Assembly (NCBI GenBank): GCA_003427395.1
Contig: BFEA01000001.1
Span: 2,595,803-2,659,802, forward strand
DNA from: Chara braunii
Lineage: Eukaryota > Plantae > Charophyceae
Direction of reading: 5' to 3'
Length of the DNA stretch: 64,000 bases
Positions 26,532 through 63,296 of this stretch are shown here, one piece after another. Both the position numbers and the translations under genes were made by a program. Position 1 is the stretch's first letter. The number at the start of each line of letters is the position of its first letter. A model generated the notes under the pieces. The model had not been told where the DNA came from. It was given only the letters and a program-made list of their open reading frames with translations, and did not search any database.

Positions 26532-26609
26532 AGAGACCCCTGATGAGCAAGCAGCTGCAGAACACCGCATCCCACACCGGCGTAATACACGGAACAAACA
26601 TACGGTAAG

Positions 26610-26767
26610 GAGAAGAGAGGGGGGGGGGGGGGGAGGCCTCAAGGACCGATGGCAACAACATGCTCCCAATCTTCATTAGTACTGGAACATCCAACCAACG
26701 TTCGGNTCCAACCAACGTTCGGACTGGGTGGTGCCTTGTTAGAGAGAGAGAGAGAGAGAGAGAAAAA

Positions 26768-26800
<33 letters not shown>

Positions 26801-26888
26801 GGCCTCAAGGACCGGTGGCAACATCATGCTGCCAATCTTCATTAGTACTGGAACATCTAACCAACGTTCGGACTGGGTGGTGCCTTGT
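26610..26888. repeat. Tandem duplication with poly-G runs
   Basis: G-run followed by AGGCCTCAAGGACCG...ATTAGTACTGGAACATC.AACCAACGTTCGG twice. May be partly an assembly artefact (an N lies inside). Confidence 0.75.
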
Positions 26889-31655: not shown

Positions 31656-34600
31656 CTCCCGCTGGCCTTATTTCGAGGTCCGCCGAGAAAAATCCCACTT
31701 TTACCTGTCGTAGCTGTTCAACCCACGTCCAGCCCTCTCATAGTAGGAAACAATGTGAGGGGCTGTTTGTATAAGTTCCTCCCTGGGGAGCGAGCGGTCC
31801 TCGCTGGGTTCCTGATAAGCGAACCTAACTTTATATTGTCTTTGAGGTCTCCCTCGACGACCGGTTTGGAATGTATCTTCAGCAACTATTCGATCTACAT
31901 CATACTTTCCATCCATATCCGGCGGTATCATGGAGCGTCGGGAGGGAAACTGGTCGTTTGTGATGCAGGGAAGTAACTTAGAGGCGTGGAATACCGGATA
32001 GGTATGCAGGTGGGTTGGAATCTCAATCGTGTAGTATGGACCATCTGCCTCTAACTTGACATCTAAGACTTGCCATCGTCCCCTATATGCGGGTAGCAGT
32101 TTCTGCGAAATCCGCTCCTCAGGAATGAACTCCTAGACTTAACCCATACCAGATCTCCTACCGCAAATTGCGATGGTCGTTGATGTTTGTTAGCTTGTTC
32201 TACCATCTGGTGTTGGGCCTTAAGGATGTTTTTCTTGACTTGCTCTAGATCTTTCTCGTACTGGATAGCAAACTCCCTCGTTCCGGGTGGCAATCTCTGA
32301 ATCTGATCTGGGTTCAGACAGTCGATTGGACGTCGAGGTCGCCAGCCCTTGTGCAGCTCGTCCGGTGTGCGTGCTGTCGACAAGTGTACGGAATTGTTAT
32401 ACGCAGCCTGTACTTTGGGAAGGTGCTCATCCCAGTCGATCTGATCGGGCCTAATATACATGCGAAGCACTTGCTGAAGCAGTTTATTCATCTGCTCAGT
32501 CTGACCATAGTTTCCAGATGTCCGCCGGAAGACATTGTCAATTTCGACCCATAGACTTTCATCAACTGTTGCCAATGCTCGCCCGTGAGCCTACTGTCTC
32601 GATCACTGACAATCGATAGCGGGTGCCCGTAATCCTTCACCCAATGATTGAAAAACTCTTTAATCACTAAATCGGTCTTTGCCTCGGCAGGCAGCGGAAT
32701 AGAAGCAGCGAACTTGCTAAACCTGTCTACAACTACCATCACTTGACTCTTACCATTTCTGCTTTTCACTTTCGTGTCCATGAAACGGACTAGCCAGGAC
32801 CGGACGGGATAAGTAGTGGCCTCAACAAGCCCAGTGGCGACTGTGTGGAGCTTTTGTTCCGCTGACACACTTGACAACCCTGGATGTAGGCAATGCAGTT
32901 GTGTTTCATACCGACCCAGGTGTAGGACCGTCGGAGGTTTGCATAAGTCTTCCTCCATCCGCAGTGGCCCTCAATGTCGTGGCGTTCTCCCAAGATCAGA
33001 CTTTTGGTAGTCTCATTGTTTGGGATGCACAGTCTGTCAAACCTATCAGTCTTTTTTCAAATAAGAGTCTGTCACTTACTCTATAGTCTGGAACTTCATG
33101 TGGTGTTGTTTGCACTCTCCTGATGAGTTCGCTGTAAACGGGATCCTCAGTGTACGCAGCTCTAATCTGTTGCTGCTGTTTGGTGTCGGCGTCTAAATAA
33201 GTCAAAATTGCACTGAAAAAGTTTGCGAGTCTACTAAGCGTATCTGCGATGACGTTGTACTTTCCCTTTACTGGCTTCAACTGGAAGTCAAACTGGTCGA
33301 TCTCCCCAGCCCATCTAGTCAACTTAGGAGTCATTCGGGCCTAGGTCTTTAACCAGCATAGAGTCCCACGGTCAGAATAGACTTTGAAATGTCTACCTAG
33401 CAGATAGTGCCGCCAGTGGCTCAGCGCTTCTCTCAAGCCAAGTAACTCACGTTCGTACGTTGACGCAGCGACCTTCTCACTAAGCAATCTACATGACATG
33501 AACTCTACTAGCCTATACCCTTCATCGTTCTGTTGGAGTACAGTGCCTATGCCATATTGGCTTGCGTCAGTAGTTACAATGAATGGCAAGTATGGATCTA
33601 CCTTTTTTAGGACTGGGTATTCGATCAACGCCTTTTCAACTTCTTGAAGGCAAAATTACAGTTTTTATCCCAATTCCAGACTGTTTCCATTCCTCAACAA
33701 CTTACGCAATGGTGCAGCGATCATCGTGAATATTCGCACAAACTTCCGGTAGTAATTCGCTAATCCTAAGAATGTACGCACTTCAGTCAACGTGTGCGGT
33801 GTGGGTCAATCTCTGATGGCTACTATCTTTGCGTCTTCCAGGCTGACCCGTCTTCGTCCAATACGTGGCCTAAGTACAAAACTTGACGCCTAGCCCATTC
33901 GCATTTCTTTGGGTTCACCTTGAACTTTACAGTGCACAACTTCTCTAAACCTAAGCGCAAATGTTGTTGATGCTCCTCTAGAGTCTTACCGAAAATCAAA
34001 ATATTGTCTAGATACGCTACTACAAATTTATCTAACCATTCGCGGAAGAGATCATTCATGCATCTCTGGAATGTAGCAGGGGCATTCGTCATGGCATGAC
34101 CACAAACTCGTAGTGGCCATAGCGAGTCCTAAGGTTGTCTTGTGCTGGTCTTCGGGTTGTACCTCTATCTAATGGTATCCCGATTTCAAGTCAATCTTCG
34201 AGAAGTATGTGCAGCCCTACACTCTATCCAACAAGTCGTCTATCCGCGGCAAAGGTTCAACATTCTTGACCGTAATCACATTCAAACTCCACTAATCTAT
34301 ACACATATACGCAGGTCACCTTCTTTCTTGGGCATAAACAAGACCGATGCGCAGTACGGTGAGGAGTTGGGCTTTATCCAGCCTTTCTCAGTCAGTTCAT
34401 TAAGTTGCTTGCGCAGCTCGTCGAGTTCTTTGGGAGACGTTCTGTAAACCGGTCCCTCGGGAATCTTGCTACCGGGCTCGATCTCTATCGAGTGCTTAAT
34501 CTCTCTTTCGACTACTCCCGCCAGACTTTCCCACATCTGCGAACTTTTCGAACAGTTTCTCAACTTTTGGCAGCGTTGGTATCTCCTCTTTTTTGCCTTC

Positions 34601-35390
34601 ACTTACCGGTCTAACGTATGCTACGAAGACTTGGTCAAGCAAATCGGGTTTGACCACGTGTCTGGCGAACGTGGGGGCACTCGTACAACAAAGGGACAAA
34701 CCGGACTCAACGCCAGACTCACGAAACAACCGCAATTTCTTTTTGCCTCCCTGAGGGCTGGGCAGCCAACATTCATGCTCGCCCATCTTCACATCTGCTC
34801 GCGTGGCTTCTCCCCAACCCGTCCCTAAAATCAGGTCAAAAGGTAGGTTATCCTTCACTAAGAGTGTCAGGGAGTTCAGAACTCTCTCTACCTTAGTCTC
34901 CCCCTCCAACCAAAAGTATGCCTTGATCCCTTTGACATAATCTTCAACTCTCATGTCACGATTGTCTGCGAGCCTACTCACTACCGGCTCATCCAACTCT
35001 TGAAGCTTCATGTCGAGGTGCATCTTCTTCAACCCCCTTCGCCTAGTGTAACTGCTCGTGGACCCACAATCGGCCTAGGCCGCGCATGGCCGCCTCCGGG
35101 GGGGGTTCATAGAACACGCCTACTCGCTCTGTGCTGATCTTTATGTCTGGTAATATAAGTTGCCCTTTGCTCTCCTTCTTTATTTCAGCCCAAGCTTGGC
35201 GACGAGTCATCAACTCATCACCTATGCCGGTGAGAGAACCACCCAGAGAGACCCTAGCACAAGCAGTCTCCGGACAGCTAACTGGGTGGAGGGCTACATC
35301 AAGCTTTGTCGTTGGGACCTTCAGACATGAGGGTGCCTGGTCAGCGCGCGCTTCTACTTGTCTGTCTATGTCTGAAGGCCCAATCCCTTT
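30690..35390 (-). mobile_element. 5'-truncated Ty3/gypsy chromovirus related to the 3418 element
   Basis: Minus-strand protease region (ETACARVSLG), RT (YLDN), RNase H (TDASQYGIG), integrase and chromodomain (YDVDRIV..YKVRFAY). PPT AAGGCCAGCGGGAG precedes an LTR starting TGAAAGG. gag and 5' LTR are missing. Confidence 0.92.
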
Positions 35391-37709: not shown

Positions 37710-40116
37710 AGGCGGTTAACTAGTGGTTAATGGAAGGCCAAAAATTCGGGGGGTTTCGCCACGTCGCTACAAGCAATGTTGTCGAAACTTTTGCGAACAA
37801 ACTATGCAGGGTCATAATACAAACATAAAAAAAAACAATCAGGCAAAAAAAAAACGAAAAAATCAAACTCAAGACCACTATAAATCAGAGTTGGCAACTG
37901 GGATTTTTTGGAATACCTGCACCTTACCTACCCATACCCTCCTTGAAAACTAACCACCCATACCCACTGTATAGATGGCCTACCGGACCTTTACCCATCC
38001 TTATCTGCTCAAGAAAAAAAAAATTGTACCTGTACCTGCCCTACCTGAACCCCTTCAGACTGTAACTGCCCATAACTGCCCGTGGACTTTCTATTTCAAA
38101 ACTACCCATGGCCACCTACACCTAGACCTTTTGTTAACCACCTGTACCGTACCCAACCAATTTTTGTTTTCACCCCTACCCACCCGTCCCCACCCACAAT
38201 TGTATGCACCCACCCATAACCATCCACATTTGTGACCCACCCTCCCCTAACCACCCCAAATTGTCCCCAACTACCCCTAAGTGCTCGTATATGTCCCCAA
38301 CCACCCCTAACCGCCACCCCTATCCGCCCCTAACCATCCGCATTTGTGACCCACCCTCCCCTAACTGTCCCGAACCGCCCCTAANNNNNNNNNNNNNNNN
38401 NNNNNNNNNNNNNNNNNNNNNNNNNNNNNNNNNNNNNNNNNNNNNNNNNNNNNNNNNNNNNNNNNNNNNNNNNNNNNNNNNNNNNNNNNNNNNNNNNNNN
38501 NNNNNNNNNNNNNNNNNNNNNNNNNNNNNNNNNNNNNNNNNNNNNNNNNNNNNNNNNNNNNNNNNNNNNNNNNNNNNNNNNNNNNNNNNNNNNNNNNNNN
38601 NNNNNNNNNNNNNNNNNNNNNNNNNNNNNNNNNNNNNNNNNNNNNNNNNNNNNNNNNNNNNNNNNNNNNNNNNNNNNNNNNNNNNNNNNNNNNNNNNNNN
38701 NNNNNNNNNNNNNNNNNNACACACAGAACGGCAACGGGTACAACCACGACGGTCGGACGATGTCCGTGCAGTGGCAAGCACACAGAAGGGCGGGGGGTAC
38801 AACCATGACGGGTGGCCAATTTCCAAGGGGGAACTCCCTGAGGCGAGGCTGGAGCCTTCCAATTTCGAAAGTGGCCAATTTCGAAGTTGGGAGGCTATTT
38901 CCTGAAATATTTTTTTCGCCATTCGCGCCAGGAAAACATATTGTGCCTAAGAAAAAAACAGCCTTGTCGGTCTGCATATTTTCTAGGAAGAAGGGAACGG
39001 GGGGGGGGAAAGGGGGGAAAAGGGGGAAAGGGAGGGAAGGGGGGGAAGGGGGGGGAAGGTAGATATTATGTACAGTTACCCGACTGAATTGCTTACCCGC
39101 CCATACCCATCTGATTTTTTTTTTCACCACCCTATAACGTCTCTACGCATGCTTTTGTTTTTCTTGGCCGCCCATACCTGCGGTTTTTCCCTTTTCACCG
39201 CCAGGACCCGACCATGCCTGCCCGTAATCTCCATGCAGTGCAACCGTGCCTGCCCTGAAATCCACAAATCAAATTTATACCTGCCCATACGGATGCCCCT
39301 CTCCGGAATGGTACCCATACCTGCCCATAACCTGCCGGTTATAGTTGGGTACGGTCAGGTACGGGCAACGGTTATCCAGTTGCCACCTCTGCTATAAATC
39401 CCTATTCGGAGTAGCTTTCGAAGTTCGCCAAAGTTTTTTTCGAGTCTGGTGTTTTTGCTAAGTTTTTTGTTATTGCTTCAAATACGGCAAAACTGAATAC
39501 AGATATACCCTAAAACACATATATAAAAGAAAAACTGAGAATTTTTCTTTTTGCCTGTCATATATGTGTTTTAGGGTATATCTGTATTCAGGTCGCCGTA
39601 TTTGAAGCAATAACAAACTTAGCAAAAACACCAGACTCAGGACGACAGTAGTGGTTAATGGAAGGCCAAAAATTCGGGGGTTTTCGCCACGTCGCTACAA
39701 GCAATGTTGTCGAAACTTTTGCGAACAAACTATGCAGGGTCATAATACAAACATCAAAAAAACAATCAGGCAAAAAAAAAACGAAAATCTTTTATTCTTT
39801 TCTCAGTTTTTCTTTTTGCCTGTTATAATGTGTTTTAGGGTATATCTGTATTCAGTTTCGTCGTATTTGAAGCAATAACAAAAAACTTAGCAAAAACACC
39901 AGACTCGAAAAAAGCTTTGACGAACTCCGAAAGCTACTCCGAATAGGGATTTATAGTGCTCTTGATTTTTATTTTTTTGTTTTTTTTTTGCCTGATTATT
40001 TTTTTTATGTTTGTATTATGACCCTGCATAGTTTGTTCGCAAAAGTTTCGACAACATTGCTTGTAGCGATGCGGCGAAAAACCCCGAATTTTTGGCCTTC
40101 CATTAACCACTAGTGT
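37710..40116. mobile_element. Non-autonomous foldback (Mutator-like) element with long TIRs and a 10 bp TSD
   Basis: TSD CGTCCTGGAG at 37700-37709 and 40117-40126. Arms ACTAGTGGTTAATGGAAGGCC / GGCCTTCCATTAACCACTAGT extend about 300 bp. Confidence 0.8.
37886..39391. mobile_element. Non-autonomous hAT element nested in the foldback element
   Basis: TIR CAGAGTTGGCAACTGG / CCAGTTGCCACCTCTG, perfect 8 bp TSD CTATAAAT, subterminal CCCATACC/ACCC repeats. Confidence 0.9.
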
Positions 40117-41346
40117 CGTCCTGGAGTGTTGAGGAGGTGGTTAAGCTCGCCCAAGCGAAGAGGGATCAGCAAACTCGTTTCAAGGGCATGCCACACAACT
40201 ACGGACGGATGCATAAGAGAGAATGGAACCTGCAGGACCCGCAAAAGCATTTGTCGGAGGTGGGGGTGAACAAGACGACTGACGACATCGGCAAGAAGTG
40301 GGACAACCTCTTCCAGCAGTACAAGAAAGTGCAACCATATTAGAACGCCTATGGGGGGAAGAACTTCTTCAGCCTGACAAATGCGCTGAGAACGGAAGAA
40401 GGCTTCAACTTCAGAATGGACGAGCGTGTATACGATGAGATGGACACCATGTTGAAGGGCAACAAGACCATCTACCTGGACAACACCGCCGACATGAGCA
40501 CTTGTGAAGGAGTGCAAATGCCACGTTCCCCATCAGTTGTTGGAGAATCCGCCACCGGGGCTGATGAGAACGACGACGACGGAGGCTCGATGTGGTAGTC
40601 CGGGTTCAGTGCAAGCAGCACGGGAGGGAACTGCAAGAGGAAGACCATGCGCCAACAGACATTCGACACCATCGCTGAAGTTATGGAGAAACACGGCGCA
40701 TTGATGGCTGACACCTACGACGGGCCAGCAAGCAACAGTGTTTTATTCTGGAGCTGCGGTGCGACATACTTGAGTGTGAGGCTGATGCCCAGCAATGACA
40801 TTACGAGGCGTCCGATGAGGCGAACGGGATGATGTGCACCGCGTTGCTGAAGATCGTCAAAGCCATCAGCGACAGGTCCTGATGCGGCCTCTGCTCCTGC
40901 ATCTGCCGATATTTTCCTGCGGTTGGCCGTCCTGTCCGTGCCTCCACAGGCGTTGTACCCGTCACTTGCTTTGCGTTTATGCTGCAGTGATGGCAGTCAT
41001 TCGGCACAGTTTAGTTCATCGCTCCTGCGTATATGGTTTCTGTTCGACGACGTATTCGTCTATGTATGTATATACATTTGTGTGTATAATACATATATAG
41101 ATGTATATATTTTTTTAGAAGGAGGCAGTTGTTGCGATTTCGCTGCCGATGCGGCACAATTTTTATACGACATGTCCGTGCACTCTTGCGTTTTGAGTTG
41201 CTGGGGTGGGATCCACACCTTGTGTGTTGCGAGCTGCGGCGCCGTTGTCTTGGTATCTTGGTACGATTTGGTTTTCATTCCATTGTATGTTTATATTTTG
41301 CAAGTAATTGTGATGGCTGATTTTGTAACAGCAGTGCCCAAGCCCT

Positions 41347-47931: not shown

Positions 47932-48064
47932 GTACATCATCAAACAGAACTGCCAGGTAAACCATGGAAAGAGGGGGAGAAGGAGAAAACAAACGAGAGG
48001 CCGTGACGAATTGTTCCATTGGAATTTCACACACGCACATGTACAGAGAGAGAGAGAAGGATGA

Positions 48065-48425
48065 TGATGATGATGATGTGAGGGCACATACCTCGTATTG
48101 GCTGTGGTCTGCATTGGTCGACGTCTTCAAGTACTTCGTCGGCTACTCACGTCGACTGTTGCATTGTCAATTAGTAGGCTAGTGGTAACTGTGTGGGGAA
48201 TAGGCTGGGCATCGAAGCACCAAGTAGGGAGAAGGGTCTGGAAGCATATGTTCGTGGTGGGAGAGCGAGCTCTCCTTGACATTTGGTTTTCAGTGTTACG
48301 ATTCTCCCTTGGTGTTATATTAGTGCAATGTTGCTTTCTGGATACGGCTATACATTCTGACTTTCAATGTGATTGTGCATTCTGAATATTGCCATCTTGT
48401 TATTGCTCAATTCCTTTGCGCACTA

Positions 48426-48490
<65 letters not shown>

Positions 48491-49958: not shown

Positions 49959-50013
<55 letters not shown>

Positions 50014-50385
50014 GTGACGATGTAAGGGCACGTACCTAGGCTTGGTGATAGTCTACGGGGGTCGAAGCCTGAATGTACTTAGATTCGGTTGTTGACGTCA
50101 ATTGGATACATTGTCAATTCATTGGCTGCTAGCCTGCTAGCGAGTTGTGTGGCTGTAGCCTGTGTATTGAGCTCGGGTAGAGGGAGGACTCTGAGTACTT
50201 ATATCTGGGAATAATGAGAGCATAATCTTACTGACATTCAGATTCAGAACTTTGGTTCTCCGTTGATGGAATGCGAGTACATTACTGTCTTCCGGACGCT
50301 GACGGACTTCCTGGCTTTCAATGTGATCTCGCGATATGCAATCTGTCCTTCCACCTTTGCCCATTGCCTTACGGTGCTATTATTA

Positions 50386-50456
<71 letters not shown>

Positions 50457-50470
50457 GTTGTTATTAATGT
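48065..50470. repeat. Two diverged ~350 bp units (48070-48430, 50015-50380), each between a GA/GAT tract and (TTA)n
   Basis: Shared GATGT.AGGGCAC.TACCT, CATTGTCAATT and CTG.CTTTCAATGTGAT in the same order with the same flanking microsatellites. Confidence 0.65.
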
Positions 50471-51153
50471 TGTTATTGATTCAGTAGTTTGTGGTCTCAA
50501 CCAGCCTCATGCCGCCCTAAGAGAAGGCAGGCCTTAATGTCCGCCAAGGGCCCTTACCCCTGCATTTTTTTGATAGGGGTCGTGAACAGTAATGCAGGCT
50601 AGTTGGTTGAAGTCCGCCCCGGGCACACGCAGCATGAGGCCAGCATAGTAAGATGGGGGCCGCAAGCCACTAAGACGGTAGCATTGTCGCCGCATCCACG
50701 CACGGGCACTAAACGGCTTGGGCCGCGGCCAAACAGCATGACACCAGCAGACTATGGTCAGGCAGGGCATCAAACGCACATGGTTCTAGAAACACGCGTA
50801 CCGAACGGTGAGCGGGTTGCTATGCCCCGGGGTGTGTGGTAGGAACAAGGATAATGCATGAGGGAGAAAAAAAAATGTTAGAAAATGAGAAAAAGAAGGA
50901 GGAGGAAAGTGAAATAAGGAGGGGATCAATGGCAAAGAGGGCGAAAAGACTGTTTTTGTGGCTCCTGCATGTTTGTTTTTTTTTCAAAGAGATAAATTAT
51001 TTATTGTACTAAAAATATTCTCTTTACTATTGCTCCCTAAACTTTTATTTTTTCGGTTGATTGTCATTGTTATTGACTATCATTCATTAATTAGTATCAT
51101 GGAAAAGAAAGCGGATCAGATGGGGAGGGAAAGAGCAAGGTACCAGAGGGAGA

Positions 51154-53017
51154 CATCGTCACCGTGTGACGATGCCTACCTCCTCCATTCTCCTCTGTTC
51201 TCTCCTTGATTTAATCCCTTCTTTTCCTTTTTCTCCATATTTATCCAGTAATATTATTATAATCATCGTCATTGTTATCATATTGCTATTGAAGGTAATG
51301 AGAAAGATCAGATTTGAGAATTATGGGGCACTGGAGTGGAGAGAGACATCGTCACCGTGTGATGGTGCCTACCTCCTCCATCCTTCCCCATTCTCCCGTG
51401 ATCTAATCCCCTCACTTCCCTTTGTTTTCACAAACTATCCAAAATGGTATGATATCTTTGAATGAAAAATCTACTCTATGGAGAAGGATCAAACAGACGG
51501 AGACAACAGGGCGATTGCGGGAGCTCTGCCGGAACTAGGAGGAACTCTGGAGGCAGGGAACCATGAGGTATGCGTCACCTATTCCGTTCGCATATACCCA
51601 TACAAGTTACAACCTTCTACTGGATTGCCCGTATGGGTGTGTGATATATTGTTTGTGTCTTCTTCAGGACTAAAAGTGTATCGAAATGAAAAAAGGTATA
51701 CGATTGAAGCAAGAATCCTGTCTGATGAAAGGAAGGAACCTAGGAGAACCGAGAAGGAACCTAGTTTGCTTGGGTTTGGGAAACAAAGTTGTGTGATGGA
51801 GGTTCCCGTGGGGTCGTCACACTGTTTGCATGGGCTGACTAAGATGGATGACGGGGTACTTGCCGTGCAAAATTACCCTGCCATTCATCTGACTAAAGTG
51901 ACAATTGATGAAATGTCTGTTTGATTTCAGCATTAGTGACGAGAAGCTGCCGTGCAGTTTTCTTGTTACCTTACAGGCTAGATCTAGAAAGTAATTCGGT
52001 ACTCCCGTGGGGTACATGTCTTCAAACGACTAACAAAAGCAAAGGTAGTGGGAGGCTCCCGTGGGGTTCTCCTATCACAGATCTGACCAAACTTGGAAAG
52101 GAACTAGGTACTCACCGTGCGAGTACACGAACCCCTAAGTCTGGGTCGATCTGCCCGACTTCCCGTGGGAGTCAACATACCTTTTGCTCATTTACGATGC
52201 ATAGGCAAATAGATGAACGGTCAGGGCAACTTAACTAAGAGTTGTTTTGACTGATTTCCTACGCATCAAACTGATAGTAGGGTAACTCCCGGGAGGGTTA
52301 CCCTAATACTTGTTTGATCTGGGGATCGACTAAAAGGAGCAAGGAAATGAGGTGATTGTGTTTGGGCAGTAGACGAATACTCCCGGGTGAGTAACCCTAC
52401 TACTTGTTTGAGTATAATTGATGGATGGCATGATTGATTACTAACGGCCTATCTATTTAACATTGAAGCAGGAAACAGGAGACTTCCGTGGGGTCATCCT
52501 TTTGCTTGTTTGACTCTATCTTAACAGGTATAATAAGATACTCCAGCAAAGGGAGGATCTGGTGTTTGCCTGAGTCCACTAACATAATCCTAGCTCGTCT
52601 GACTCTGAGAAAGCAGTAGGGTGACTCCCGTAGGGTCATCTTATTACACTTTTGAGGATAGACTGAGCTCTGGTTAAAGAGTAATAGAAGGTTTCCGTGA
52701 AGATCACCTATTACTAACTAGAATTATGTATTGACACCTGAATCTGAAGTGTTTTTCTTAATGTTGGGTCAAGTGTGGAGATGGTTCGACCATGACCTCC
52801 TAACTATCTGCTTAACTAATAAAAGGATGCTCTCATATGAGTTATCCGGTCGCCTGCATAAGACTGTTTGAGACAATTGATTGGATAAAGACTGCATGGA
52901 CTTTGAAGAGTGGTTGAGTGTTCCCGTGGGGCTACTAAACTACTCCTTTGACTAACAATTTTTGCCTGGAATTGATCAAGTAGTGGAAGATTCCCGGGTG
53001 AGTCGACCCACTGCTTG
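51154..53017 (+). ncRNA. Array of 16 stem-loops with a conserved CCG(T/G)(G/A) apical loop (putative cis-acting RNA)
   Basis: Loop motifs at 51162, 51355, 51806, 51863, 51950, 52005, 52059, 52115, 52163, 52289, 52383, 52486, 52628, 52695, 52924 and 52994. Each is centred in an inverted repeat with a different stem sequence and many G-T pairs on the + strand. Confidence 0.75.
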
Positions 53018-56000
53018 TGTATGTCAGGACAAGAAGAACAGAAAGGAAAAGTGGACTGCTTCAGCGCGAGCGACTCTAAAAGTCATAGAAAAAACAGAAT
53101 AAGAGGCAAATACCGCGGAGACAAAGAATTAGAAAAGAAGAAGCTCCGCGTAGCCTCAGTACATTAATAAACTCCTAAGGGAGAAAACGTCAAATGGCAT
53201 GAATTGATCTTAGCTAGACTGCCGCGTAAGCACCAAACGGAGTGCTTATCCGCAGGAAAAAGAAATACAGAGACTGAGAGTAGGGGAAATGTGAGTTTCC
53301 CTAAGATAACTTAGGACATAGGCAAGAGACTCCTTGAACAAAAGGAGAAGGGGTGACAGACGACTGAGGGTAGGTAGAAACTAGGGGTTATACTTTGGGA
53401 TGTTAATCCCAAAGCTCACAGACCAGATCTAAGGGCTTGACCCTTAGATATCAATATGTCGAAAATCGAGTGGGGGTGTTGAATCTTTGTTGACCTGTGT
53501 GTGTGCAGGTCCCTGTTTTGATCTACAGCAATTGAAGGAGAAGTCATATAAAGAGGACTCAATTTTTTTGTTACCTCTCGATAACAGGTCGGTCGTTGTC
53601 GATTCAACTTTTCCCCTTTGACTTGATACCCACGTCTAAAATCAAACCCTGTAGTCAGTAAAACTGTCACCTGTGGTCATTGCCTAAATGGTCCTGGTCA
53701 CTCTCAAGGGTCCTTTGAAGAAATGTGAGGGGGTTGGGCTTACGTCTCAGGAAAGATAGAGTTGTCATACATGGTTTGGGGAGTGAGGGACAATGTCAAT
53801 GGTTGATGGTTGATGTCGTCAGTGCATGGCATGTGAACTGTTTTTGCATCATTTTGTGCAGGTCTGTCTTGTGCATGATTTGGATTGAACTGGGATTGAC
53901 ATCGTGAAGAGTCTTGGACACACATCACTTGTGAAAGTGAGAAGGGTTCCCAACGGTAATACCTCTGTATTCATTTTTAGTCTTATATAACTTTTATACC
54001 ATATGATGTTCAGTCATATGTTAAGTAGAATAAAATGCCCTTGGTAGTGACAAGGTTTGTTTGATACTTTGATCATAGTGGTCAGAAGGAGATGTTTTGG
54101 GAGCAGAAGCGAAAATGGACGACCATCTCAAAGTTTGACCTGAATATCTAACGGCCATGAAGGATGAGAGGAGCTTTCTGCTTGGCACCGCCAGTCTTCT
54201 GCTGTTCAAAGAAGATAAGGGCATTGCGCGCAATCTGCAAAGGTAAAACATGGCCGGTATAACGGTGTGCTGATCACCACCCGCATGCTGAACAGAGAAA
54301 GGAGACATGTGAAGAGGATATGTTCTCACGAGAGTGCATGACGCGCGTGAAGTAAGGAGAGACGGTTCGCATGAGAAAGTTTACGCGCGAGTTAGCTGCT
54401 GACGTCAGCATTTTGTCGCAACATGAATCTTGATTCAACTTCAACATGACACCCGTCAGCTCCTTGCTTCTTGAAATTCGAGAAGTTGAGAGGGAACGTG
54501 CAGGCTGCTTATCATTATGAGTGGGGCCATGCTAAGTTTTTGTTATGGAGGATGATAGTGATGAGTATTGTTTGTTTGGTTAGTGAGCCCAGCGGTCAGG
54601 GCCTAACATCTGATAGACTTAAGATGTGAGTTCAAGCTTTACAAGCGAAGACCAGTCATCCTCGACAGGAGTAGTGGTTGCGAGACCGATAGGACTAAGC
54701 TGACAGCTAAGTATACTTGGGTACCGAAAGATCATGCCGCTTAAGGGAGTGGTTGATAGCGACCAAAATTAAAAGAACCTTAATAAGACTCTAGATATTG
54801 CGTTCCCACGTAATCCTGACAAGGCCGCTTGGTAGGGTGAGTGGGTAGTGTCTTGGAAGGGTCAAGTAGCTTTGCACAGCAAGAGGGGTAGTTTTACTGT
54901 TNGCTCTGAGCTCTTCTGAAGTTTTCGCTCTTAATAAAGGTATTTTCTTCCTTTTCTTGATCGGTCATTCGACGCTGCCGAAGGACTCTTGTGCTANTCT
55001 CACAGACACTCGGACTGAATTGAGCGTGATGGTCTAGTTTTGACTAATGAACAAGAGAAAACTGGTGCTGAGAAAAGTCGCTTACCTGCTGGCTAAATAT
55101 TTNCTTGACGGGGATTAGTGATCTGCACTTTAATTTTAGCTGGCTCAAGTGTATAATGGGTAACGGGTAAGCCATCGGGAANCAGAGTGCATTTGTGGGT
55201 TGAGAAAAGTACACACAGTTCATGTTATGCGGTACTCAGAGGAACGCTCAACTAGGTTCTGGTATGCCAGCTCACCTGTGAGTTGGATTGCGGAATCTAA
55301 TTACTCANAAGATAAAATCCCATGAGATGCTATGATGTGTTGTGACATTTTAGGNAGAGCCGGGTCTTAATTGTTAAATTTTCTTGTCTTTTAAGGGGGC
55401 NAGAGCAGNGGGNTCAATGTCTTGAGGAGTGAGCTTGGTGAGTAANTATGNNTTTTTGTTGTGTTTCCCTGAGCCATGGTACTCGAGGACAGACTGAGTG
55501 GGGCCTACAATTTCCTTGAAATCCTTTTGAGTGAGTTATCAGGGATGGTTTCGTAACTAGTTCGGCACTAGGCGAGACTCAGACCTGAGCTTCACTTGTA
55601 TCAATAACAAAAGTATTGTGTGATACATGAGTGGAGATCGTAGTTGCACTATTCGGGTGATGAGGGCTTTTGTTGACGTTGCCCCGCGCTCTGTGCATAA
55701 TGAACCGTGTGGTGTAGAGTCTGTCGCAAGAGTGTCCATCTTTAACAAAAGCCAGACCAGGAGGTGAGCATGCTCTGATTGAATTCGTAATCAACCTTTG
55801 GGGGTGAGATTTGTCTTTGTAGTCGAGCGTGAGGGACAGGGTGGTCCTCCGTCAATAGCACCCCAAGTTTTGTTATCTGAAGGGTCAGGACCATCCGTGA
55901 TGGGTCTCTATCCCGAAGTTGAGGAGTTAAATTGAGAACTGTTCGCAGGGGAAACTCTTGTAGCCTTGCGTCTATTTCAGGAAAACTTTGACTCATGCGA

Positions 56001-56116
56001 AACAGACTCAGGCAATCTGCAAATGGACCCAGACAACCCAGTGTGGGCTCCGGTAATTCAGTATAAGTACAGACAAACCCTGTGTGTAACTCTGTGATAC
56101 CGATCGTGAAGAAGTC

Positions 56117-56362
56117 ATGAAGAAGGACGAAATTCTAATGGTGAAAGGTAGATCGGATAGGGATAAGAGAGAAGGCTGGGAGGAAGAGGCGAGTAGGGAT
56201 ATGGAAGGACATAGACTAACTAAAAGAGAGTTTGCGGTTGAAACAGTAGGAGAGAGAAGGTACATCGAATTTGTGATCTACTTTGACGGGCCCGATGGTA
56301 AACTGCATAGTACTGGTTTTTCGCTAGAGAGCGTGGAGCAGGCCAAGGCAAAACTTGCGTGA
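56117..56362 (+). CDS. Small unknown protein (81 aa), paralog of 57865-58116
   Basis: Ungapped alignment from the start Met gives 18/81 identities to the 83 aa ORF. Confidence 0.6.
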   Translation: MKKDEILMVKGRSDRDKREGWEEEASRDMEGHRLTKREFAVETVGERRYIEFVIYFDGPDGKLHSTGFSLESVEQAKAKLA

Positions 56363-56634
56363 GCCCAACAGAGTTGAGATCATTGTTTCCATAATTTTTA
56401 CTAGTGTCCAAATAGTGGCAGTCTGCAGCCTCCTCCGTGGCATGAGGATGCTGGTGTCAACAATCCAAATACTCGGTACATATTTAGACAGTCAGAGCTG
56501 GGACTAGGCTAGGATCAGCGTTCAGACATCGGGGTTGACACAGTAACCAGAGTGGTAACCGGAAACGGCTGTCAGAGAACAGGTTTTCTAGGCAGCAATT
56601 GGGGACCGTGTCTAGAACAAGTATTCGAAAGGCA

Positions 56635-56745
56635 TCCGGAACCATACTCAGAACCGTATCCGGAACCATACTCAGAACCGTATCCGGAACCATACTCAGA
56701 ATCATATCCGGAACCATACTCCGAACCATACTCGGATTCTTACTC
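56635..56745. repeat. 12/24 bp tandem repeat
   Basis: CCGGAACCATACTCAGAACCGTAT about 4 times. A decayed 12 bp period recurs at ~57380-57500. Confidence 0.85.
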
Positions 56746-57864
56746 AGCCACTATTCGGTCCTTTACTTGATTGATGTTTCGCAACCAGTCAGTGGTCAGA
56801 GAAGGCACTTCTGAATGAAAATTTTTGCGGCAATAGTCAGTCGTTAACCAAGTGGTGGTCAGACAGTGACAGGACCAGCAACCAGAACGGCAAGCAGATT
56901 AGGGGTCAAAGCCTCATCCAAAAACTACAACTAAAAGAAAAAAAAGAGGGAGAAAGGGGGCGAGGGTAGCCCTCAAGGCAGTATTTTGAAGAAATAGCAT
57001 TCAAAGCCGACTCCTAGAACGTTTCTAGTGCAGCGCCCGGGACTGTACTCGAAACCGTGTTCAGATTGGGACAGTTCTTAACAAATAGTTCAATCACTAT
57101 TTTAATCCATAGTTGTTTAACAGACGGTCAACTTGACCTGACAGCGGACGTTCATTGGCAGACTACGGTTATCTCGACCTCTAGCAACTTGCCCTTTATC
57201 AGCAAACATCAACAACACTCAGTCTACACCGTCAACAGTCAAACGACAGCGTTCAGTTTTCAGTCAGCGACTAATCAACATCTAACCAGCCAAAAGAGAA
57301 GGTGTTTAGATCAGGACTCATATTATTTTGAACGGTATTCAGGTCCGGATTTGGGCTCTGTACTTTGGACTTAACTGTGCTCGGAACTGTACTTGGGCAG
57401 TACTCGTAACTGTACTCGGAGCTGTACTCAGAGCGGTTCTTAGGAAAGTACTTGGAGCCACATTTAGAGCGGTACTTAGGATGGTGCTCTGAACGGTATT
57501 TAACTGTGGATTCGGTTACCTCTCAATTTGCATTTAATCAGCAAACAGCCAACTCAAACGGCAACGAGTGTTCTTTATCAAGCAATAAGTTTTCAGAGCA
57601 GCAATCAGCCAGTAATTGGAAACAACCCTCCAGAGCAGTAATTGCAGTAGTAGCAGTCAACTGGTAATCAAACGGTGAGCGAATGACAACAGAGAACTGT
57701 ATCTAGAACAACAACCACTGCCAACCAGGAACAGCAGCAGGAAACGACAATCTGAAACAACCATTCAAAACAGCAATCTGCCCAATAATCTTTTCACACT
57801 TGTATCATCCAAGAGTCACTCGTATCGAGTTGGTGATCTGATGTAACGAGAATTCAGTGAGAAT

Positions 57865-58116
57865 ATGGACAACAATAGCACAGTCAGAGTCTCCTGCTTG
57901 CTGTATCAGAGTGCTCAAGAGACCTGGAGGGAGAAAGCAGTTGAGGAGTACAATCAGCAGACCGCTATGATGATGGAACGCGCGCTGGTTCTCGTGAGGG
58001 ATCATACAGAAATCGAATACACATACTACCTGCATGATAAGATTGGCAGACTATGTGTCACCATAACTTCAGTGGGCACTATTGAGGAAGCAAGGAGGAT
58101 CGTGGGCAACCACTAG
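57865..58116 (+). CDS. Small unknown protein (83 aa), paralog of 56117-56362
   Basis: Shares ExWxExA, ExAxxxV, IE[FY]xxY and G[KR]LxxTxxS[LV]x[ST][VI]ExA with the 81 aa ORF. Confidence 0.6.
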   Translation: MDNNSTVRVSCLLYQSAQETWREKAVEEYNQQTAMMMERALVLVRDHTEIEYTYYLHDKIGRLCVTITSVGTIEEARRIVGNH

Positions 58117-58315
58117 TGAGTGTTTTGTCTCTGAACGAGTACAGCTCACTTATCCGGACAACCAACAATCATCTAATCAGCAGTCAATTAGCAGCAATCA
58201 GTTATTATTAGTGATCAGTTTCTAGCAATCAGTCTTCAGCAATCATTTTCCTGCAGTCGGTTTGGTAATCTGTTCCCCGGGACCGTCTGATCAGCTTGTA
58301 CTGGCAAGAGTACTC

Positions 58316-58978
58316 ATGAGCACAGTTCAGTCTATGCCGGTAAGTGAGTCAGTGCTGGCCAACCTCAATTGGATCTCATGCAAAGAGGCATTTCATTATC
58401 AGTATGTTAGTGTCATTGGTTTCAGACAGGGAGATCTGTCAAACTTCGTTGTCCAGACCAGTTTTGCTGATGGCACTATCCACGATTTGAGGCCTTATCT
58501 GAAGAAGGGCAAGGAGGCTCATGAACTTTTCGATCCGGTCTGGATCTCAGCCACCAATTGTCTTGAGCAGAGAGAGGGGGAGCTCGATGAGAGTGGTACT
58601 ACATTGATCCGCAGCTTCGGGCCGGCGCTTTATACTGACTATCCTAGGCCTCCGGTCCCTTCTCTTATCACTGATGGCACGAGTTGGTTGGATGTGATCG
58701 GTTTGGCAAAGAGGTACATCTCTCCGACGGTGATCGACATTGAGGCGTTGACTGTGCCCACTAGGTATCCCTACCTTAGACGAGGGGTCTTTTCAGTAGA
58801 CGGGTTGCCTACATTGTGGGAGGAGTTTTGCTCTATGGTTAATTACCATGTTATGTGCCTCGGATGGTCGTGTTCAGAGTTTGCTGGCTACAAGTGGCAT
58901 TTTATCACGAAGCCCCAGTCTCAGACTGTACGTGGGCACCAGAAAAGATCAGTGAAAAGAGAGATTGTGAGAGGCTGA
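58316..58978 (+). CDS. Orphan 220 aa protein
   Basis: Uninterrupted, compositionally complex ORF from ATG 58316, with AATAAA at ~59252 downstream. No recognised domain. Confidence 0.45.
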   Translation: MSTVQSMPVSESVLANLNWISCKEAFHYQYVSVIGFRQGDLSNFVVQTSFADGTIHDLRPYLKKGKEAHELFDPVWISATNCLEQREGELDESGTTLIRSFGPALYTDYPRPPVPSLITDGTSWLDVIGLAKRYISPTVIDIEALTVPTRYPYLRRGVFSVDGLPTLWEEFCSMVNYHVMCLGWSCSEFAGYKWHFITKPQSQTVRGHQKRSVKREIVRG

Positions 58979-59464
58979 CCAGAGGGATGAGTGAGGACTC
59001 TTGAGAGGTGCTGACCATGCCCGTTTACATGTACTTTCTGAGATTATTATGAGTTCTCATTCTTCCCTCATTCAATTGCCCCTATCTTTGCTCAAGTCAG
59101 TCAGTCTTATTTTCTGCATTATTCTTGCTTGATGATTGCCTTCGTGGATGCTTTGTCACAGTTCTCAAAATCAGATTGACAATTGATGCATGCATAGCAC
59201 CCCATAACTTTATGATCATTATTTGCATAACTCTCTACTGTTCCGAATCAAAATAAAAGATTCCTAAGACCGGGGACCGGCGAAGACCGCAATTGAAGGG
59301 TCTCGCTCAAAGCCGAACGCACACAACAGGAAGGGACTTGCATTATTTAATTCATTTTATTTATTGCAATCACATACAAAATCCTGCGTGACAGCCTGTT
59401 GGCTTTCCGATCGCCCGAAGTGGCCCGACTGGAAAAAGTGCGACAACGCGCGTATGTGTGCGCG

Positions 59465-59531
<67 letters not shown>

Positions 59532-59546
59532 NNNNNNNNNNNNNNN

Positions 59547-59661
<115 letters not shown>

Positions 59662-59749
59662 AAGAGCAAGTAAGTTTCCACTGTCGCGGTCAACCTCATG
59701 GTACTTCCACTGACAAACAAAGCCTCGCGCATCAACGCGCGATAGTGTG

Positions 59750-60157
59750 AGGGAGCGGGGGAGGCAGCAGGAGCGGAAGAGGCAGTGGGAGTGGGAGTGG
59801 GAGTGGGAGTGGGAGAGGCAGCGGGAGCGGGGGAGGCAGCGGGAGTGGGGGAGGTAGCGGGAGCGGGAGAGGCAGCAGGATCGGGGGCGGGAGGCAATGG
59901 GAGCATGAGCAGGGGAGGCAGCGGGGGTGGGAGAGGCAGCAGGAGCGGAAGAGGCAGTGGGAGTGGGAGCGGGAGAGGCAACGGGAGTGGGGGAGGCGGC
60001 GGGAGTGGGGGAGGCAGCGGGAGCGGGAGAGGCAGTAGGATCGGGAGTGGGAGAGGCAGCGGGAGAGGCAGCAGGGGAGGCAGCAGGATCGGGAATGAGA
60101 GAGGCAGCGGGAACGTGAGCAGGGGAGGCAGTGGGGGTGGCAGCGGGAGCGGGCAGC
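59750..60157. repeat. G-rich degenerate 6/18 bp minisatellite
   Basis: GAGCGGGAGAGGCAGCGG-like units between microsatellites. Confidence 0.85.
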
Positions 60158-60329
60158 GTATGTGTGTATGTGTGCATATGTGTGGTCGTGTATGTGTGTG
60201 TGTGTGTGTGCGTATGTGTGTATACGTATGTGTGTGTGCGCTCGCGTGTTTGTGTGTAAATGTGTTTGTTTGTGTGTGAGTGTGTGTGTGCCTGCACACA
60301 CATTTTTTTTCCCGAATACATTCCTCAAG

Positions 60330-60792
60330 AATCAACAAAAGAGTTTGGAATCGATCGTGCCAAAAATGCGAACGTGAAGGCAAAGCGAAAGTCAGTTCCA
60401 AGAAAAAATCTCTGCAAGATATTCGTATTTTGCATAAATCTACCAACCTTCAGATTTCAAAGACTGTCTTTTATCGGGCCGTTGAAGAAATTACCAAGGA
60501 CAGGAAGAACGACGCCCGAGTGCATCTCCTTCCTCTCCAAGCTCTTCAAGCTCTTCAAGAGATTTCAGAGCAATGGATAAGTCAATTATTCCGAGACACG
60601 GTTTTGGTAGCATCTTGTACCAGACGTGTGTCAGTCCTTCCTAAGGATCTCCACACCGTCATTATGATACGGAACGATGAATTCAGTGAGGGGTGGAAGG
60701 AGAAAGTTAGGGATTGCATACCACCAGCACCTTTGACAAGTTATGAGAAGACTTGGGTACAGCGGATGAAACCAAGGCGGACAAAGAAATGA
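60330..60792 (+). CDS. Highly divergent histone H3-like protein (histone fold plus C-terminal extension); start unresolved, possibly a pseudogene
   Basis: SLQDIRILHKSTNLQISKTVFYRAVEEI...ALQEISEQWISQLFRDT...RVSVLPKDL...IR aligns with H3 [28 protein letters not shown]...ALQEAAEAYLVGLFEDT...RVTIMPKDI...IR. No in-frame ATG upstream of the fold. Confidence 0.8.
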
Positions 60793-63296
60793 AATGTAGA
60801 CGAAGTTTGACTGTGAAGAGTTGTACGTGTAACATACGCCAAGAGGGGGAATGTTAAGGTTTTTTTTTTTTGACTTTTTTTTTTCTAGGCACTTTGTTGC
60901 TACGGCGGAGGCTTAGACGTGCTCCTCAGCACAACAGAACAAAGATTCGATGACCAATGAACTCAATGATGATGAATATTATTCCATGGTTTGAGGAGAA
61001 TGAACTTTCAGGGTTGTAGTGTTTACAACAAAACACAGAATTGTGCATGTGCTTTATATTCCTTGGTTCCGTTTTTTACTATGGAAATGGCGGTTTTTTT
61101 TCTGGTTATCGTCATGGCATCGCGGTTGGTTGTTTCCTGTTGTTCGGCATCTGGTGCAGGGGCGGTGCTCATATGTAGGAAATGACATCCGCGTTTGTCT
61201 TTTACGTTGTTCCTGGTGGGGTTCAAAGCCGATCGTGTTTTGATCTGCATCCCGGATGGTTTTGTCTTGTTGTTCGGTCTATTTTGGCGTGGCATCATAG
61301 CGCTGCTCTCATGTGGGACTAATCATCCAGGTTCTGGTTTTGTCTTGGGATGTATTGTTGTCGGACATGTTGAAATTTCTGAATAAGGCATTTGAGTTCA
61401 CGGACGTCCGCAGCCATATCAGCATTGGAAACTTTTATATATAGTCGTGTTGTGAAAAAAAAAAAAAAAAAAAAGGATATCCTGGTTGCTTTTGTCCCGT
61501 CGTTTTCCCTTTGGCGCGGCGGCAACTATTTGTGTTTGTGTTATTGCTTGTTGCCCCCTGTTCAGTTATATTTCGCTATTCCCTTCCTCTTTTCTTCGCC
61601 TTTTTGCCTTTCGGGCCTTCGACTGTGTACAAGTGGATCGATATGACACACGGGGGTGGGGGCAGCCGACGCTCAATCTACATCCACGTGGGCGGCCTTG
61701 CATGCAAGAGGTTCTGAACAGGGGGAGTTTTTCTAAACTGGAAATAAAATATGAATTTAATTTATTTTTTTTTCGTTTTTGCGCTTTGATAAATGTGTGA
61801 CNNNNNNNNNNNNNNNNNNNNNNNNNNNNNNNNNNNNNNNNNNNNNNNNNNNNNNNNNNNNNNNNNNNNNNNNNNNNNNNNNNNNNNNNNNNNNNNNNNN
61901 NNNNNNNNNNNNNNNNNNNNNNNNNNNNNNNNNNNNNNNNNNNNNNNNNNNNNNNNNNNNNNNNNNNNNNNNNNNNNNNNNNNNNNNNNNNNNNNNNNNN
62001 NNNNNNNNNNNNNNNNNNNNNNNNNNNNNNNNNNNNNNNNNNNNNNNNNNNNNNNNNNNNNNNNNNNNNNNNNNNNNNNNNNNNNNNNNNNNNNNNNNNN
62101 NNNNNNNNNNNNNNNNNNNNNNNNNNNNNNNNNNNNNNNNNNNNNNNNNNNNNNNNNNNNNNNNNNNNNNNNNNNNNNNNNNNNNNNNNNNNNNNNNNNN
62201 NNNNNNNNNNNNNNNNNNNNNNNNNNNNNNNNNNNNNNNNNNNNNNNNNNNNNNNNNNNNNNNNNNNNNNNNNNNNNNNNNNNNNNNNNNNNNNNNNNNN
62301 NNNNNNNNNNNNNNNNNNNNNNNNNNNNNNNNNNNNNNNNNNNNNNNNNNNNNNNNNNNNNNNNNNNNNNNNNNNNNNNNNNNNNNNNNNNNNNNNNNNN
62401 NNNNNNNNNNNNNNNNNNNNNNNNNNNNNNNNNNNNNNNNNNNNNNNNNNNNNNNNNNNNNNNNNNNNNNNNNNNNNNNNNNNNNNNNNNNNNNNNNNNN
62501 NNNNNNNNNNNNNNNNNNNNNNNNNNNNNNNNNNNNNNNNNNNNNNNNNNNNNNNNNNNNNNNNNNNNNNNNNNNNNNNNNNNNNNNNNNNNNNNNNNNN
62601 NNNNNNNNNNNNNNNNNNNNNNNNNNNNNNNNNNNNNNNNNNNNNNNNNNNNNNNNNNNNNNNNNNNNNNNNNNNNNNNNNNNNNNNNNNNNNNNNNNNN
62701 NNNNNNNNNNNNNNNNNNNNNNNNNNNNNNNNNNNNNNNNNNNNNNNNNNNNNNNNNNNNNNNNNNNNNNNNNNNNNNNNNNNNNNNNNNNNNNNNAAAA
62801 GAATTAAAATGAGTGATTGTGCCAACACCTTTTCGACACTGCCATTTTTGCCGATTTTTAATTATTTTTTGCCATTGACAAATGCCCTGAAAATTTACAG
62901 ATATGTAGTTTACATAATCAATAACTCATTAACAAATTTTAAAAAAATAATAAAAATTGTTAGGTCCCGAAATAAAGTGAAAACAAAAGCTAAAAATGAA
63001 AAAAAACAAAATAGTGAGTAGGCGAGCATGTTTTGACACCCCCATCTTTGACGATTTTTAATGTTTTTTTGGCTCAGCAGGATGACTTCAAATTTGTAGG
63101 CGCGTAGGTTACATCATAGAGGACTCACAAAAAACAATTCAGAAAAAAAAACTAATTTCTAGGCCCCGAAATTGTTTTTGGCGGGGGCCGAACCTAAGGT
63201 ATTCGGCCCCCGAACGCTCGAACGTTCGGGGGCCAGCCCGGGGCCCCCCAAACATTCGGTCAGGTAACCCTGTATATATATATATATATATATATA

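What the first reader, a model, noticed from the sequence alone, without database searches (positions are those of the whole stretch)
51060..59335. Unclassified ~8 kb element: structured leader plus three same-strand orphan ORFs, no RT or transposase
Seen: a microsatellite-free block in an otherwise microsatellite-rich window. Its order is hairpin array, structured region, ORF 81 aa, 12 bp repeats, purine tract (~56933-56967), ORF 83 aa, ORF 220 aa, pyrimidine-rich tail, AATAAA (~59252), and ...CACAACA. I could not identify a TSD or paired LTRs. Inference: a very long solo LTR, a non-autonomous retroelement, or an endogenised virus-like segment with accessory genes.
Basis: inference. Interest (0 to 1): 0.75.

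Follow-up and report, generated by a model that had tools for sequence, protein, structure and literature searches.

The report
Giant gene-carrying retrotransposon LTR in Chara
This block is the broken right-hand end of an abundant jumping gene, likely from the stonewort alga Chara: a row of 16 hairpins with the same loop is followed by a terminal repeat, likely about 6 kb long, that likely holds three small protein genes inside it, a layout known from some retroviruses but not found in the plant retrotransposon papers checked.

Summary
The parts are real, but the element is an LTR retrotransposon, not a virus. Other genomic copies stop matching at 59445 (…GCGACA). Some go on into the Athila-type tRNA primer site, others into unrelated flanks, so 59445 is an LTR end. 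The best left end is a G-tract followed by TGTTGAA at 53477. That gives a 5.97-kb 3' LTR, preceded by an internal region with 16 covarying CCG(U/G)G-loop hairpins. No gag-pol, second LTR or TSD was found. ORF81 and ORF83 are old paralogs. ORF220 is under purifying selection (dN/dS 0.28), has an N-terminal domain predicted to fold, and matches no known family. The nearest named relatives are Chara braunii gene models. The left LTR edge and the linkage of all parts in one full copy are inferred, because no genome was held. The scan has already noted similar layouts on other DNA: genes inside liverwort and fungal LTRs, and a same-loop hairpin array in another Chara LTR. Verdict: new variant of a known kind.

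The parts
51140..53017 (+). Array of 16 hairpins with variable stems and a shared C-CG(U/G)-G apical loop; likely 3' internal non-coding region of the retrotransposon
   Evidence: 75% of 144 cells paired vs 61% shuffled, 24 double-sided changes vs 10.6, 0 of 500 shuffles (units were chosen by folding, so this leans positive); summed DNA contig depth 650-10,000 (X1) over 51255-53424 vs about 10 at the unique locus
51512..51572 (+). 50-nt piece shared with many more copies, ending in a predicted splice donor (AG|GTATG at 51566-51572)
   Evidence: loose ends at 51512 and 51561-51570, depth 25,000-38,000; donor motif; splicing not shown
53030..53467 (+). Structured region with two perfect 9-bp hairpins (53393-53414, 53427-53449) just before the PPT
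   Evidence: z -3.29
53468..53476 (+). Likely polypurine tract (GAGTGGGGG)
   Evidence: only RGGGG+TGTTRNR match in the 64-kb window; 10 of 300 shuffles of the block give one; a joint in both DNA runs resumes at 53472
53477..59445 (+). Likely 3' LTR, 5,969 bp, TGTTGAA...GCGACA; right end shown, left end inferred
   Evidence: PBS-type and random-flank loose ends at 59445-59448; terminal consensus TGTTRNR...YNYAACA in PMC3601003
53984..53990 (+). Only TATAWAW box in the block, just downstream of a copy-depth peak; candidate promoter
   Evidence: weak, 81% of 300 shuffles contain one; depth peak at 53580-53889
56117..56362 (+). ORF81, paralog of ORF83
   Evidence: BLASTP E 8e-6, 18 of 77 identical, no gaps; 0 of 5000 shuffles; DNA identity by codon position 0.47/0.48/0.29
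56634..56747 (+). 12/24-bp tandem repeat (a related one at 57373-57481), varying in length between copies
   Evidence: joints 56727->56637 and 57429->57373
57865..58116 (+). ORF83
   Evidence: against L001 dN/dS 0.42, not significant (p 0.075; off-frame controls 0.95 and 0.49); AF2 model unusable (pLDDT 46)
58316..58978 (+). ORF220: N-terminal ~118-aa alpha/beta domain of no known family, plus a low-confidence tail
   Evidence: dN/dS 0.28 vs off-frame 1.07 and 0.89, p 1e-5; relatives P0001, P0002 (Chara braunii), P0004, P0005; pLDDT 75-88 over residues 1-110
59252..59445 (+). AATAAA and likely R/U5; the highest copy depth in the block
   Evidence: depth 21,000-176,000
59446..59450 (+). Right flank ACGCG (NCGN-type target site)
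   Evidence: the random-flank loose ends also lean to C-G at positions 2-3

Best explanation
The block is the right-hand end of a high-copy LTR retrotransposon, likely of Chara and likely Athila/OTA-like, made of a hairpin array that likely lies in the 3' internal region, a likely polypurine tract, and a 3' LTR, likely 6 kb long, that likely carries three selected accessory genes. Shown: the LTR ends at 59445; other copies continue there into a tRNA primer site or into unrelated flanks; the hairpins covary on the sense strand; ORF81/83 and ORF220 evolved as proteins; no gag-pol or second LTR was found for this copy. Inferred: the LTR starts at 53477; the genes lie in U3/R and are therefore duplicated at every reverse transcription and left behind in solo LTRs. 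They would be read from a sub-genomic RNA that starts in the LTR (TATA at 53984) or is spliced in (predicted donor 51568, predicted acceptors 53508 and 53861) and ends after AATAAA 59252, with ORF83 and ORF220 reached through AUG-poor spacers. Function, committed but weak (about 0.3): the hairpins are repeated protein docking sites that mark the unspliced genomic RNA (14 of 16 lie in the predicted intron) for export or packaging, and the small proteins are trans-acting helpers of the element's own RNA, as retroviral accessory proteins are. This copy is 5'-truncated and diverged, so it is likely dead.
For: Loose ends behind 59446 (44 and 63 contigs) carry the primer site that the ATHILAfinder preprint gives as TGGCGCCGTTGCC, after a short A-rich spacer as described there. 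Loose ends behind 59445 and 59448 (65, 84, 58 contigs) have agreement of only 0.35-0.38, i.e. many different flanks. Depth is highest at the right end, as expected if R/U5 is more conserved than U3 (PMC3601003). G-tract+TGTTRNR is unique in the window (p about 0.03 within the block); depth rises 1.6-1.7-fold from 53405 to 53527, and a joint in both DNA runs resumes at 53472. No random-flank cluster is listed within 58267-59338, where depth is 11,000-176,000, which argues against an LTR start downstream of the ORF220 start. All 30 of 30 bins in both lays are covered at several times the unique-locus depth from 51100 on. Coding evidence. ATG depletion in the two spacers before ORF83 and ORF220: 7 seen vs 18.6 expected, p 0.002. 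Repeat arrays between pol and the 3' LTR and LTRs up to about 5 kb are typical of non-chromoviruses.
Against: No loose-end cluster is listed at 53477 (only 24 of 1,793 rows shown), so the left edge is not shown. A second G-tract+TG lies at 55800. Depth also steps up 5-10-fold near 57.8 kb, and L001 begins to match at 57805, next to a TG at 57801. The middle (54.2-57.8 kb) has 10-50 times less depth than both ends, and no listed contig piece is longer than 558 nt, so linkage of all parts in other copies is not shown. Summed contig depth is not a copy number (tool's warning). No RNA read supports a splice joint among the 15 of 159 joints shown. Only 6 of 818 X6 reads on the ORF side are 99% alike or more. 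The stretch 54020-56116 before ORF81 is not ATG-poor (41 vs 39). The TATA box is chance-level. No fold or family points to an RNA-binding function.
Confidence: 0.55

Rival explanations
1. Same element, shorter LTR. The LTR starts near 57801 (1.65 kb; ORF83 and ORF220 inside, ORF81 outside) or near 58.98 kb (0.46 kb; all ORFs outside). [quoted passage not shown]
For: Depth steps at about 57.8 kb and 58.94 kb. L001 matches from 57805, with TG at 57801. Athila LTRs are usually 1-2 kb, and sense 3' extra ORFs are common.
Against: 57801 is preceded by pyrimidines, not a PPT, and a depth-78 contig runs through it (record 11). The loose ends listed at 58960-59238 have agreement 0.55-0.87, i.e. subfamily variants rather than random flanks (18 of 1,472 rows shown).
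Confidence: 0.22
2. An even longer LTR (8.3 kb or more) that includes the hairpin array, its left end lost or diverged in this copy; the G-tract at 53468 is chance.
For: An unreviewed scan note reports a same-loop hairpin array inside another Chara LTR (e1-10641911). Predicted splice sites flank the array as they would a leader intron. No left-end cluster is listed at 53477.
Against: No TSD. Depth falls gradually to 17-140 left of 51100 instead of showing a conserved terminus. The PPT+TGTTRNR match has p about 0.03.
Confidence: 0.15
3. A chance chimera: a high-copy repeat (51.2-54.2 kb) next to the LTR of another family (57.8-59.4 kb).
For: The two high-depth zones are separated by a low-depth middle.
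Against: The middle is itself multi-copy throughout the laid parts (depth 100-740 vs 10-15), holds ORF81, a paralog of ORF83, and all features share one strand.
Confidence: 0.06
4. An endogenised virus segment with accessory genes.
For: Two unnamed metagenome proteins (P0004, P0005) share the ORF220 domain at 26-28% identity; their source is unknown.
Against: LTR end plus tRNA primer site; no viral hits.
Confidence: 0.02

Closest known systems
Athila lineage (Ty3/gypsy, non-chromovirus OTA; Neumann 2019 PMC6317226; ATHILAfinder 10.64898/2026.03.20.713144; passages read)
   Same: Same tRNA-Asp/Asn primer site after a short A-rich spacer; extra sense ORFs; large non-coding regions.
   Different: Extra ORFs there are defined as lying up- or downstream of the polyprotein, and PF03078 is not matched here. 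Brassicaceae Athila LTRs are 1-2 kb against a likely 6 kb here. Phylogeny could not be tested.
Ogre/Retand (Tat) elements (PMC6317226, PMC11963269; passages read)
   Same: Repeat arrays between pol and the 3' LTR; LTRs up to about 5 kb in non-chromoviruses.
   Different: Their arrays are tandem sequence repeats, whereas here the stems differ and only loop and pairing are kept. Retand ORFs are antisense and internal, and its LTRs are 315-1,194 bp.
Phygy (moss non-chromovirus; PMC6317226)
   Same: NCGN target preference; the flank here is ACGC and other copies' flanks lean the same way.
   Different: Phygy elements are short, with the polyprotein filling the internal part.
MMTV sag, a gene in U3 of a retroviral LTR (PMC12548423, passages read); HIV nef and foamy bel genes (recalled)
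   Same: Accessory protein gene carried in the LTR and copied with it.
   Different: Retroviruses, one gene, no sequence relation; here likely three genes, two of them paralogs, in an algal retrotransposon.
Retrosat2/RIRE3/RIRE8 (PMC3485330, passages read)
   Same: LTRs over 3 kb and an orphan extra ORF.
   Different: ORF0 lies upstream of gag-pol, not in the LTR.

Membership tests
LTR retrotransposon | LTR 3' end in CA followed by a tRNA primer binding site in 5' copies | tested here: met
   loose ends at 59445-59446; motif as
LTR retrotransposon | Polypurine tract directly before a TG LTR start | tested here: inconclusive
   good candidate at 53468-53483; no junction reads listed there
LTR retrotransposon | Two LTRs in direct repeat around gag-pol | tested here: not met
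   this copy: no second copy in the window (query 50000-61500), no pol match downstream of 35327; other copies not testable, no genome held
Solo LTR | Same 4-5 bp target duplication on both sides | tested here: not met
   right flank ACGCG; left of 53477 is GGGGG; no ACGC(G)+TG at any candidate left end
Athila | PBS TGGCGCCGTTGCC after an AT-rich 3-6 nt spacer | tested here: met
Athila | RT/RH/INT phylogeny within OTA and no aRH domain | not testable with these tools
   no polyprotein in this copy, no genome
Athila | Athila ORF-1 domain PF03078 in a 3' extra ORF (only 16% of Athila have it) | tested here: not met
   no such hit among 8 + 13 window ORFs scanned
Athila / Tat | 5-bp target site duplication | not testable with these tools
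   only one flank is present
Phygy | NCGN insertion preference | tested here: inconclusive
   flank ACGC; flank consensus of low agreement
Phygy | Short element without large non-coding regions | tested here: not met
   at least 8.3 kb of non-polyprotein sequence
Endogenous virus | Viral replication or capsid genes | tested here: not met
GNAT or other known fold for ORF220 | Significant structural match | tested here: inconclusive
   best VIA Z 5.4, rmsd 4.0, 92 aligned; none at Z 8 or above among 48,161 chains; Foldseek none at E 0.001

The most novel reading that the evidence does not exclude
A charophyte Gypsy lineage has turned its ~6-kb LTR into a self-contained three-gene transcription unit (own promoter, genes, poly(A) signal), so that solo LTRs and truncated copies spread through the genome supply trans-acting proteins; these proteins recognise a 16-fold same-loop hairpin array found only in the unspliced genomic RNA, a Rev/RRE-like circuit evolved independently in an algal retrotransposon.
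Probability: 0.2. Interest if true: 0.8.

Novelty: new variant of a known kind. Interest (0 to 1): 0.56.

Why it matters
Plant retrotransposon reviews place extra genes in the internal region (PMC7264820, main text read), and the standard survey capped LTRs at 6,000 bp and extra ORFs at 250 codons or more, so short genes inside a 6-kb LTR would be missed by design. If the layout holds, the genes are duplicated at every transposition and survive in solo LTRs, as in complex retroviruses. The same-loop array is also a ready-made target for finding out what marks retrotransposon RNA for export or packaging in plants, where the function of 3' arrays is stated to be unknown. If the LTR proves short, this is an ordinary Athila-like element with new extra ORFs.

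Tried and rejected
No genome was held and L001 lies in no held genome, so copy number, TSD and gag-pol could not be read directly. Word-index protein searches found nothing: ORF220 0 of 133 candidates; ORF81/83 alignment 0 of 3 and 0 of 227. Pfam gave nothing credible for 7 of 8 ORFs (the eighth is the histone fold outside the block) or for 13 further window frames (PARP and ParcG hits are below cut-off). Rfam: 2 matches, both far below gathering score. No tRNA. ESM Atlas: best 0.84 (ALO-like, lead only) for ORF220 and no usable hit for ORF83. Fold searches: no significant match. A common origin of ORF81/83 and ORF220 was not supported (hhalign probability 0.2%). No further paralogs in the window by HMM. 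Viral contigs: 0 of 2, 0 of 37 and 0 DNA matches; prokaryote genomes 0 of 14. Of the 6 phmmer hits, P0003 (tandem repeat protein) and P0006 (repeat protein) were dropped as spurious. P0001 and P0002 join ORF220 pieces to RT fragments and look like stitched gene models, so they were not taken as true fusions. No RNA holder was listed among 24 runs; 5 of the 24 runs were laid. The purine tract at 56933 was rejected as PPT because no TG follows it. The perfect TGTCGC matches at 50685, 54414 and 55722 were rejected as left ends: no TSD, no PPT, low depth. Literature: searches listed no paper whose title or abstract start describes this Chara family or a protein gene inside a plant retrotransposon LTR. 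The library lacks most subscription papers, I did not see the Chara genome paper or Repbase/REXdb entries, and I opened no supplements (Neumann's Additional files 1 and 5 hold the per-lineage PBS and TSD tables).
Full report
Context. The window is rich in microsatellites and Gypsy elements: a + strand element with 93%-identical LTRs at about 3418-12266 and a - strand pol at 31863-35327. No genome was held. The closest named relatives of a protein from the block are two Chara braunii gene models (85% and 67% identity), so the host is very likely Chara. The block's lack of microsatellites is unremarkable: it is the third longest gap among 29 tracts, and the two longer gaps are the Gypsy elements.

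The block is a repeat. I laid contigs of two DNA runs on 50480-55102 and 55453-59466. 5,669 and 5,793 contigs lay on the first part, 8,287 and 8,358 on the second, and only 585, 441, 858 and 744 of them were 99% alike or more. The unique locus has depth about 10 (X1) and 15 (X4). Summed depth is 17-140 left of 51100, 650-28,000 over 51255-54199, 100-740 over the laid parts of 54200-57864, 1,600-3,400 over 57865-58266, 11,000-28,000 over ORF220 and 14,000-176,000 over the last 530 nt. The tool warns that this is no copy number. It does show a large, diverged family with conserved ends and a subfamily-specific middle.

The right end is an LTR end. Two kinds of loose end pile up at 59445-59448. 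One kind (44 and 63 contigs, agreement 0.61 and 0.74) reads a few As and then the primer site that the ATHILAfinder preprint gives for Athila, TGGCGCCGTTGCC for tRNA-Asp/Asn after an AT-rich 3-6 nt spacer (passages). The other kind (65, 84 and 58 contigs) has agreement 0.35-0.38: many different flanks. This is what 5' LTRs and 3' or solo LTRs give at a shared end, here ...GTGCGACA at 59445. The flank ACGC fits the NCGN target preference that Neumann et al. report only for moss Phygy elements (passages).

The left end is inferred. A published terminal consensus is TGTTRNR...YNYAACA (PMC3601003, passages). The window holds one G-tract followed by TGTTRNR, at 53472-53483 (11 of 100 whole-window shuffles and 10 of 300 block shuffles give one). 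Depth rises 1.6-1.7-fold across it and a joint in both runs resumes at 53472. That gives PPT 53468-53476 and a 5,969-bp 3' LTR. Against it: no random-flank cluster is listed there (24 of 1,793 rows shown), a weaker candidate lies at 55800, and depth also steps up near 57.8 kb, where the decayed copy L001 starts to match beside a TG. That site has no PPT and is bridged by a multi-copy contig. No TSD matches any candidate left end, there is no second LTR, and the window's own pol proteins find no match downstream of 35327. The copy is therefore read as the 3' end of a truncated element, not a solo LTR.

The genes. ORF81 and ORF83 align without gaps (18 of 77 identical, E 8e-6; 0 of 5000 shuffles) and keep codon positions 1 and 2 (0.47, 0.48) while position 3 is near random (0.29), as expected for old paralogs under selection. 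ORF220 against L001, a copy with stops and frameshifts, gives dN/dS 0.28 over 132 codons, against 1.07 and 0.89 in the other frames (p 1e-5). ORF83 gives 0.42, not significant. P0002 shares the start Met and 121 residues, and two unnamed 131-139 aa metagenome proteins match the first 130 residues at 26-28% (E 2e-8 and 2e-7; 120 aligned without a gap). AlphaFold2 on 6 sequences gives a confident alpha/beta domain over residues 1-110 and a low-confidence tail. Pfam, PHROGs, the ESM Atlas, Foldseek and VIA-align name nothing (best Z 5.4). Under every LTR start upstream of 58316, ORF220 lies in the LTR. A start downstream of it should have left a large random-flank cluster in the deepest part of the lay, and none is among the 18 of 1,472 rows shown.

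The hairpins. Sixteen units between 51140 and 53017 share C-C-G at the loop (invariant in 16 of 16) and a closing G (15 of 16), while stems differ. Pairing is kept: 75% of 144 cells against 61% shuffled, 24 double-sided changes against 10.6, 0 of 500 shuffles. The units were picked by folding, so this leans positive; the motif-in-loop test, 16 of 23 against 6 of 22, is less biased. G-U pairs are common and one window folds far better on + than on - (z -6.2 vs -1.9), which points to sense RNA; the first unit folds on both strands. A predicted donor (51568) and acceptors (53508, 53861; read from the sequence) would remove 14 of the 16 hairpins. No RNA read shows this splice among the joints listed.

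Expression. RNA reads are few (35 and 337 on the first part, 818 and 6 on the second), mostly under 95% alike and, in the best run, on both strands. They come from other copies and show neither a transcript nor silence.

Mechanism. Shown: LTR end, primer site in other copies, covarying hairpins, selected ORFs. Inferred: a 6-kb LTR whose genes are copied at each reverse transcription; a sub-genomic RNA ending after AATAAA 59252, with AUG-poor spacers before ORF83 and ORF220 (7 vs 18.6); hairpins as docking sites on unspliced RNA; proteins as trans-acting helpers of that RNA. The last step is a guess at about 0.3, and an anti-silencing role is about as open.

Comparison. Non-chromovirus elements have extra ORFs, repeat arrays and LTRs up to about 5 kb; Retand arrays lie between pol and the 3' LTR with unknown function; the review of extra ORFs treats them as internal (main text). 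A gene in the LTR is known from MMTV sag (passages). It works like a complex-retrovirus LTR on an Athila-like element; Athila membership is met for the primer site only and cannot be tested by phylogeny. Unreviewed scan notes describe related layouts in a liverwort, in fungi and in another Chara family; they are leads, not support, and sequence look-ups found no note on this family.

Verdict: new variant of a known kind, interest 0.56.

Noticed in passing
window 60280-60792 (+): Open frame of 170 codons without an early ATG, encoding a strongly diverged histone H3-like fold (PF00125 E 1.5e-12; best PDB histone H3 E 6e-13), right after a GGGAGC-type tandem array (59751-60153). Possibly a spliced H3 variant or a pseudogene.
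   Followed up: partly
window 51512-51572: A 50-nt piece with much higher copy depth than its neighbours, followed in other copies by a GT donor-like motif; all 25 X5 reads there have the first mate on the - strand, which would mean sense RNA in a stranded library.
   Followed up: partly
window 59446 onward in other copies: Flanks of many copies lean to an NCG start, suggesting CG-directed integration, which Neumann et al. report only for Phygy.
   Followed up: partly
window 3418-12266 and 31863-35327: Two decayed chromodomain-type Ty3/gypsy elements on opposite strands; the first has LTRs 93% alike. The chromodomain label is my reading, not scanned.
   Followed up: no
window 50000-50443 and 48047-48490: Two copies (68-79%) of a short repeat bounded by (AG)n/(TTA)n tracts, forming the left neighbour of the block.
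   Followed up: no
window 39392-40123 and 37719-37886: Nested long inverted repeats, 90-97% alike, 130-170 nt arms; MITE- or foldback-like.
   Followed up: no
L001 420-1151: Ulp1-type protease frame (PF02902 E 9e-25) upstream of the decayed copy, likely from a DNA transposon.
   Followed up: no
proteins P0004, P0005, P0007: Stand-alone 131-139 aa metagenome proteins on contigs of 513-667 nt share the ORF220 domain; they may come from related elements of other algae.
   Followed up: partly
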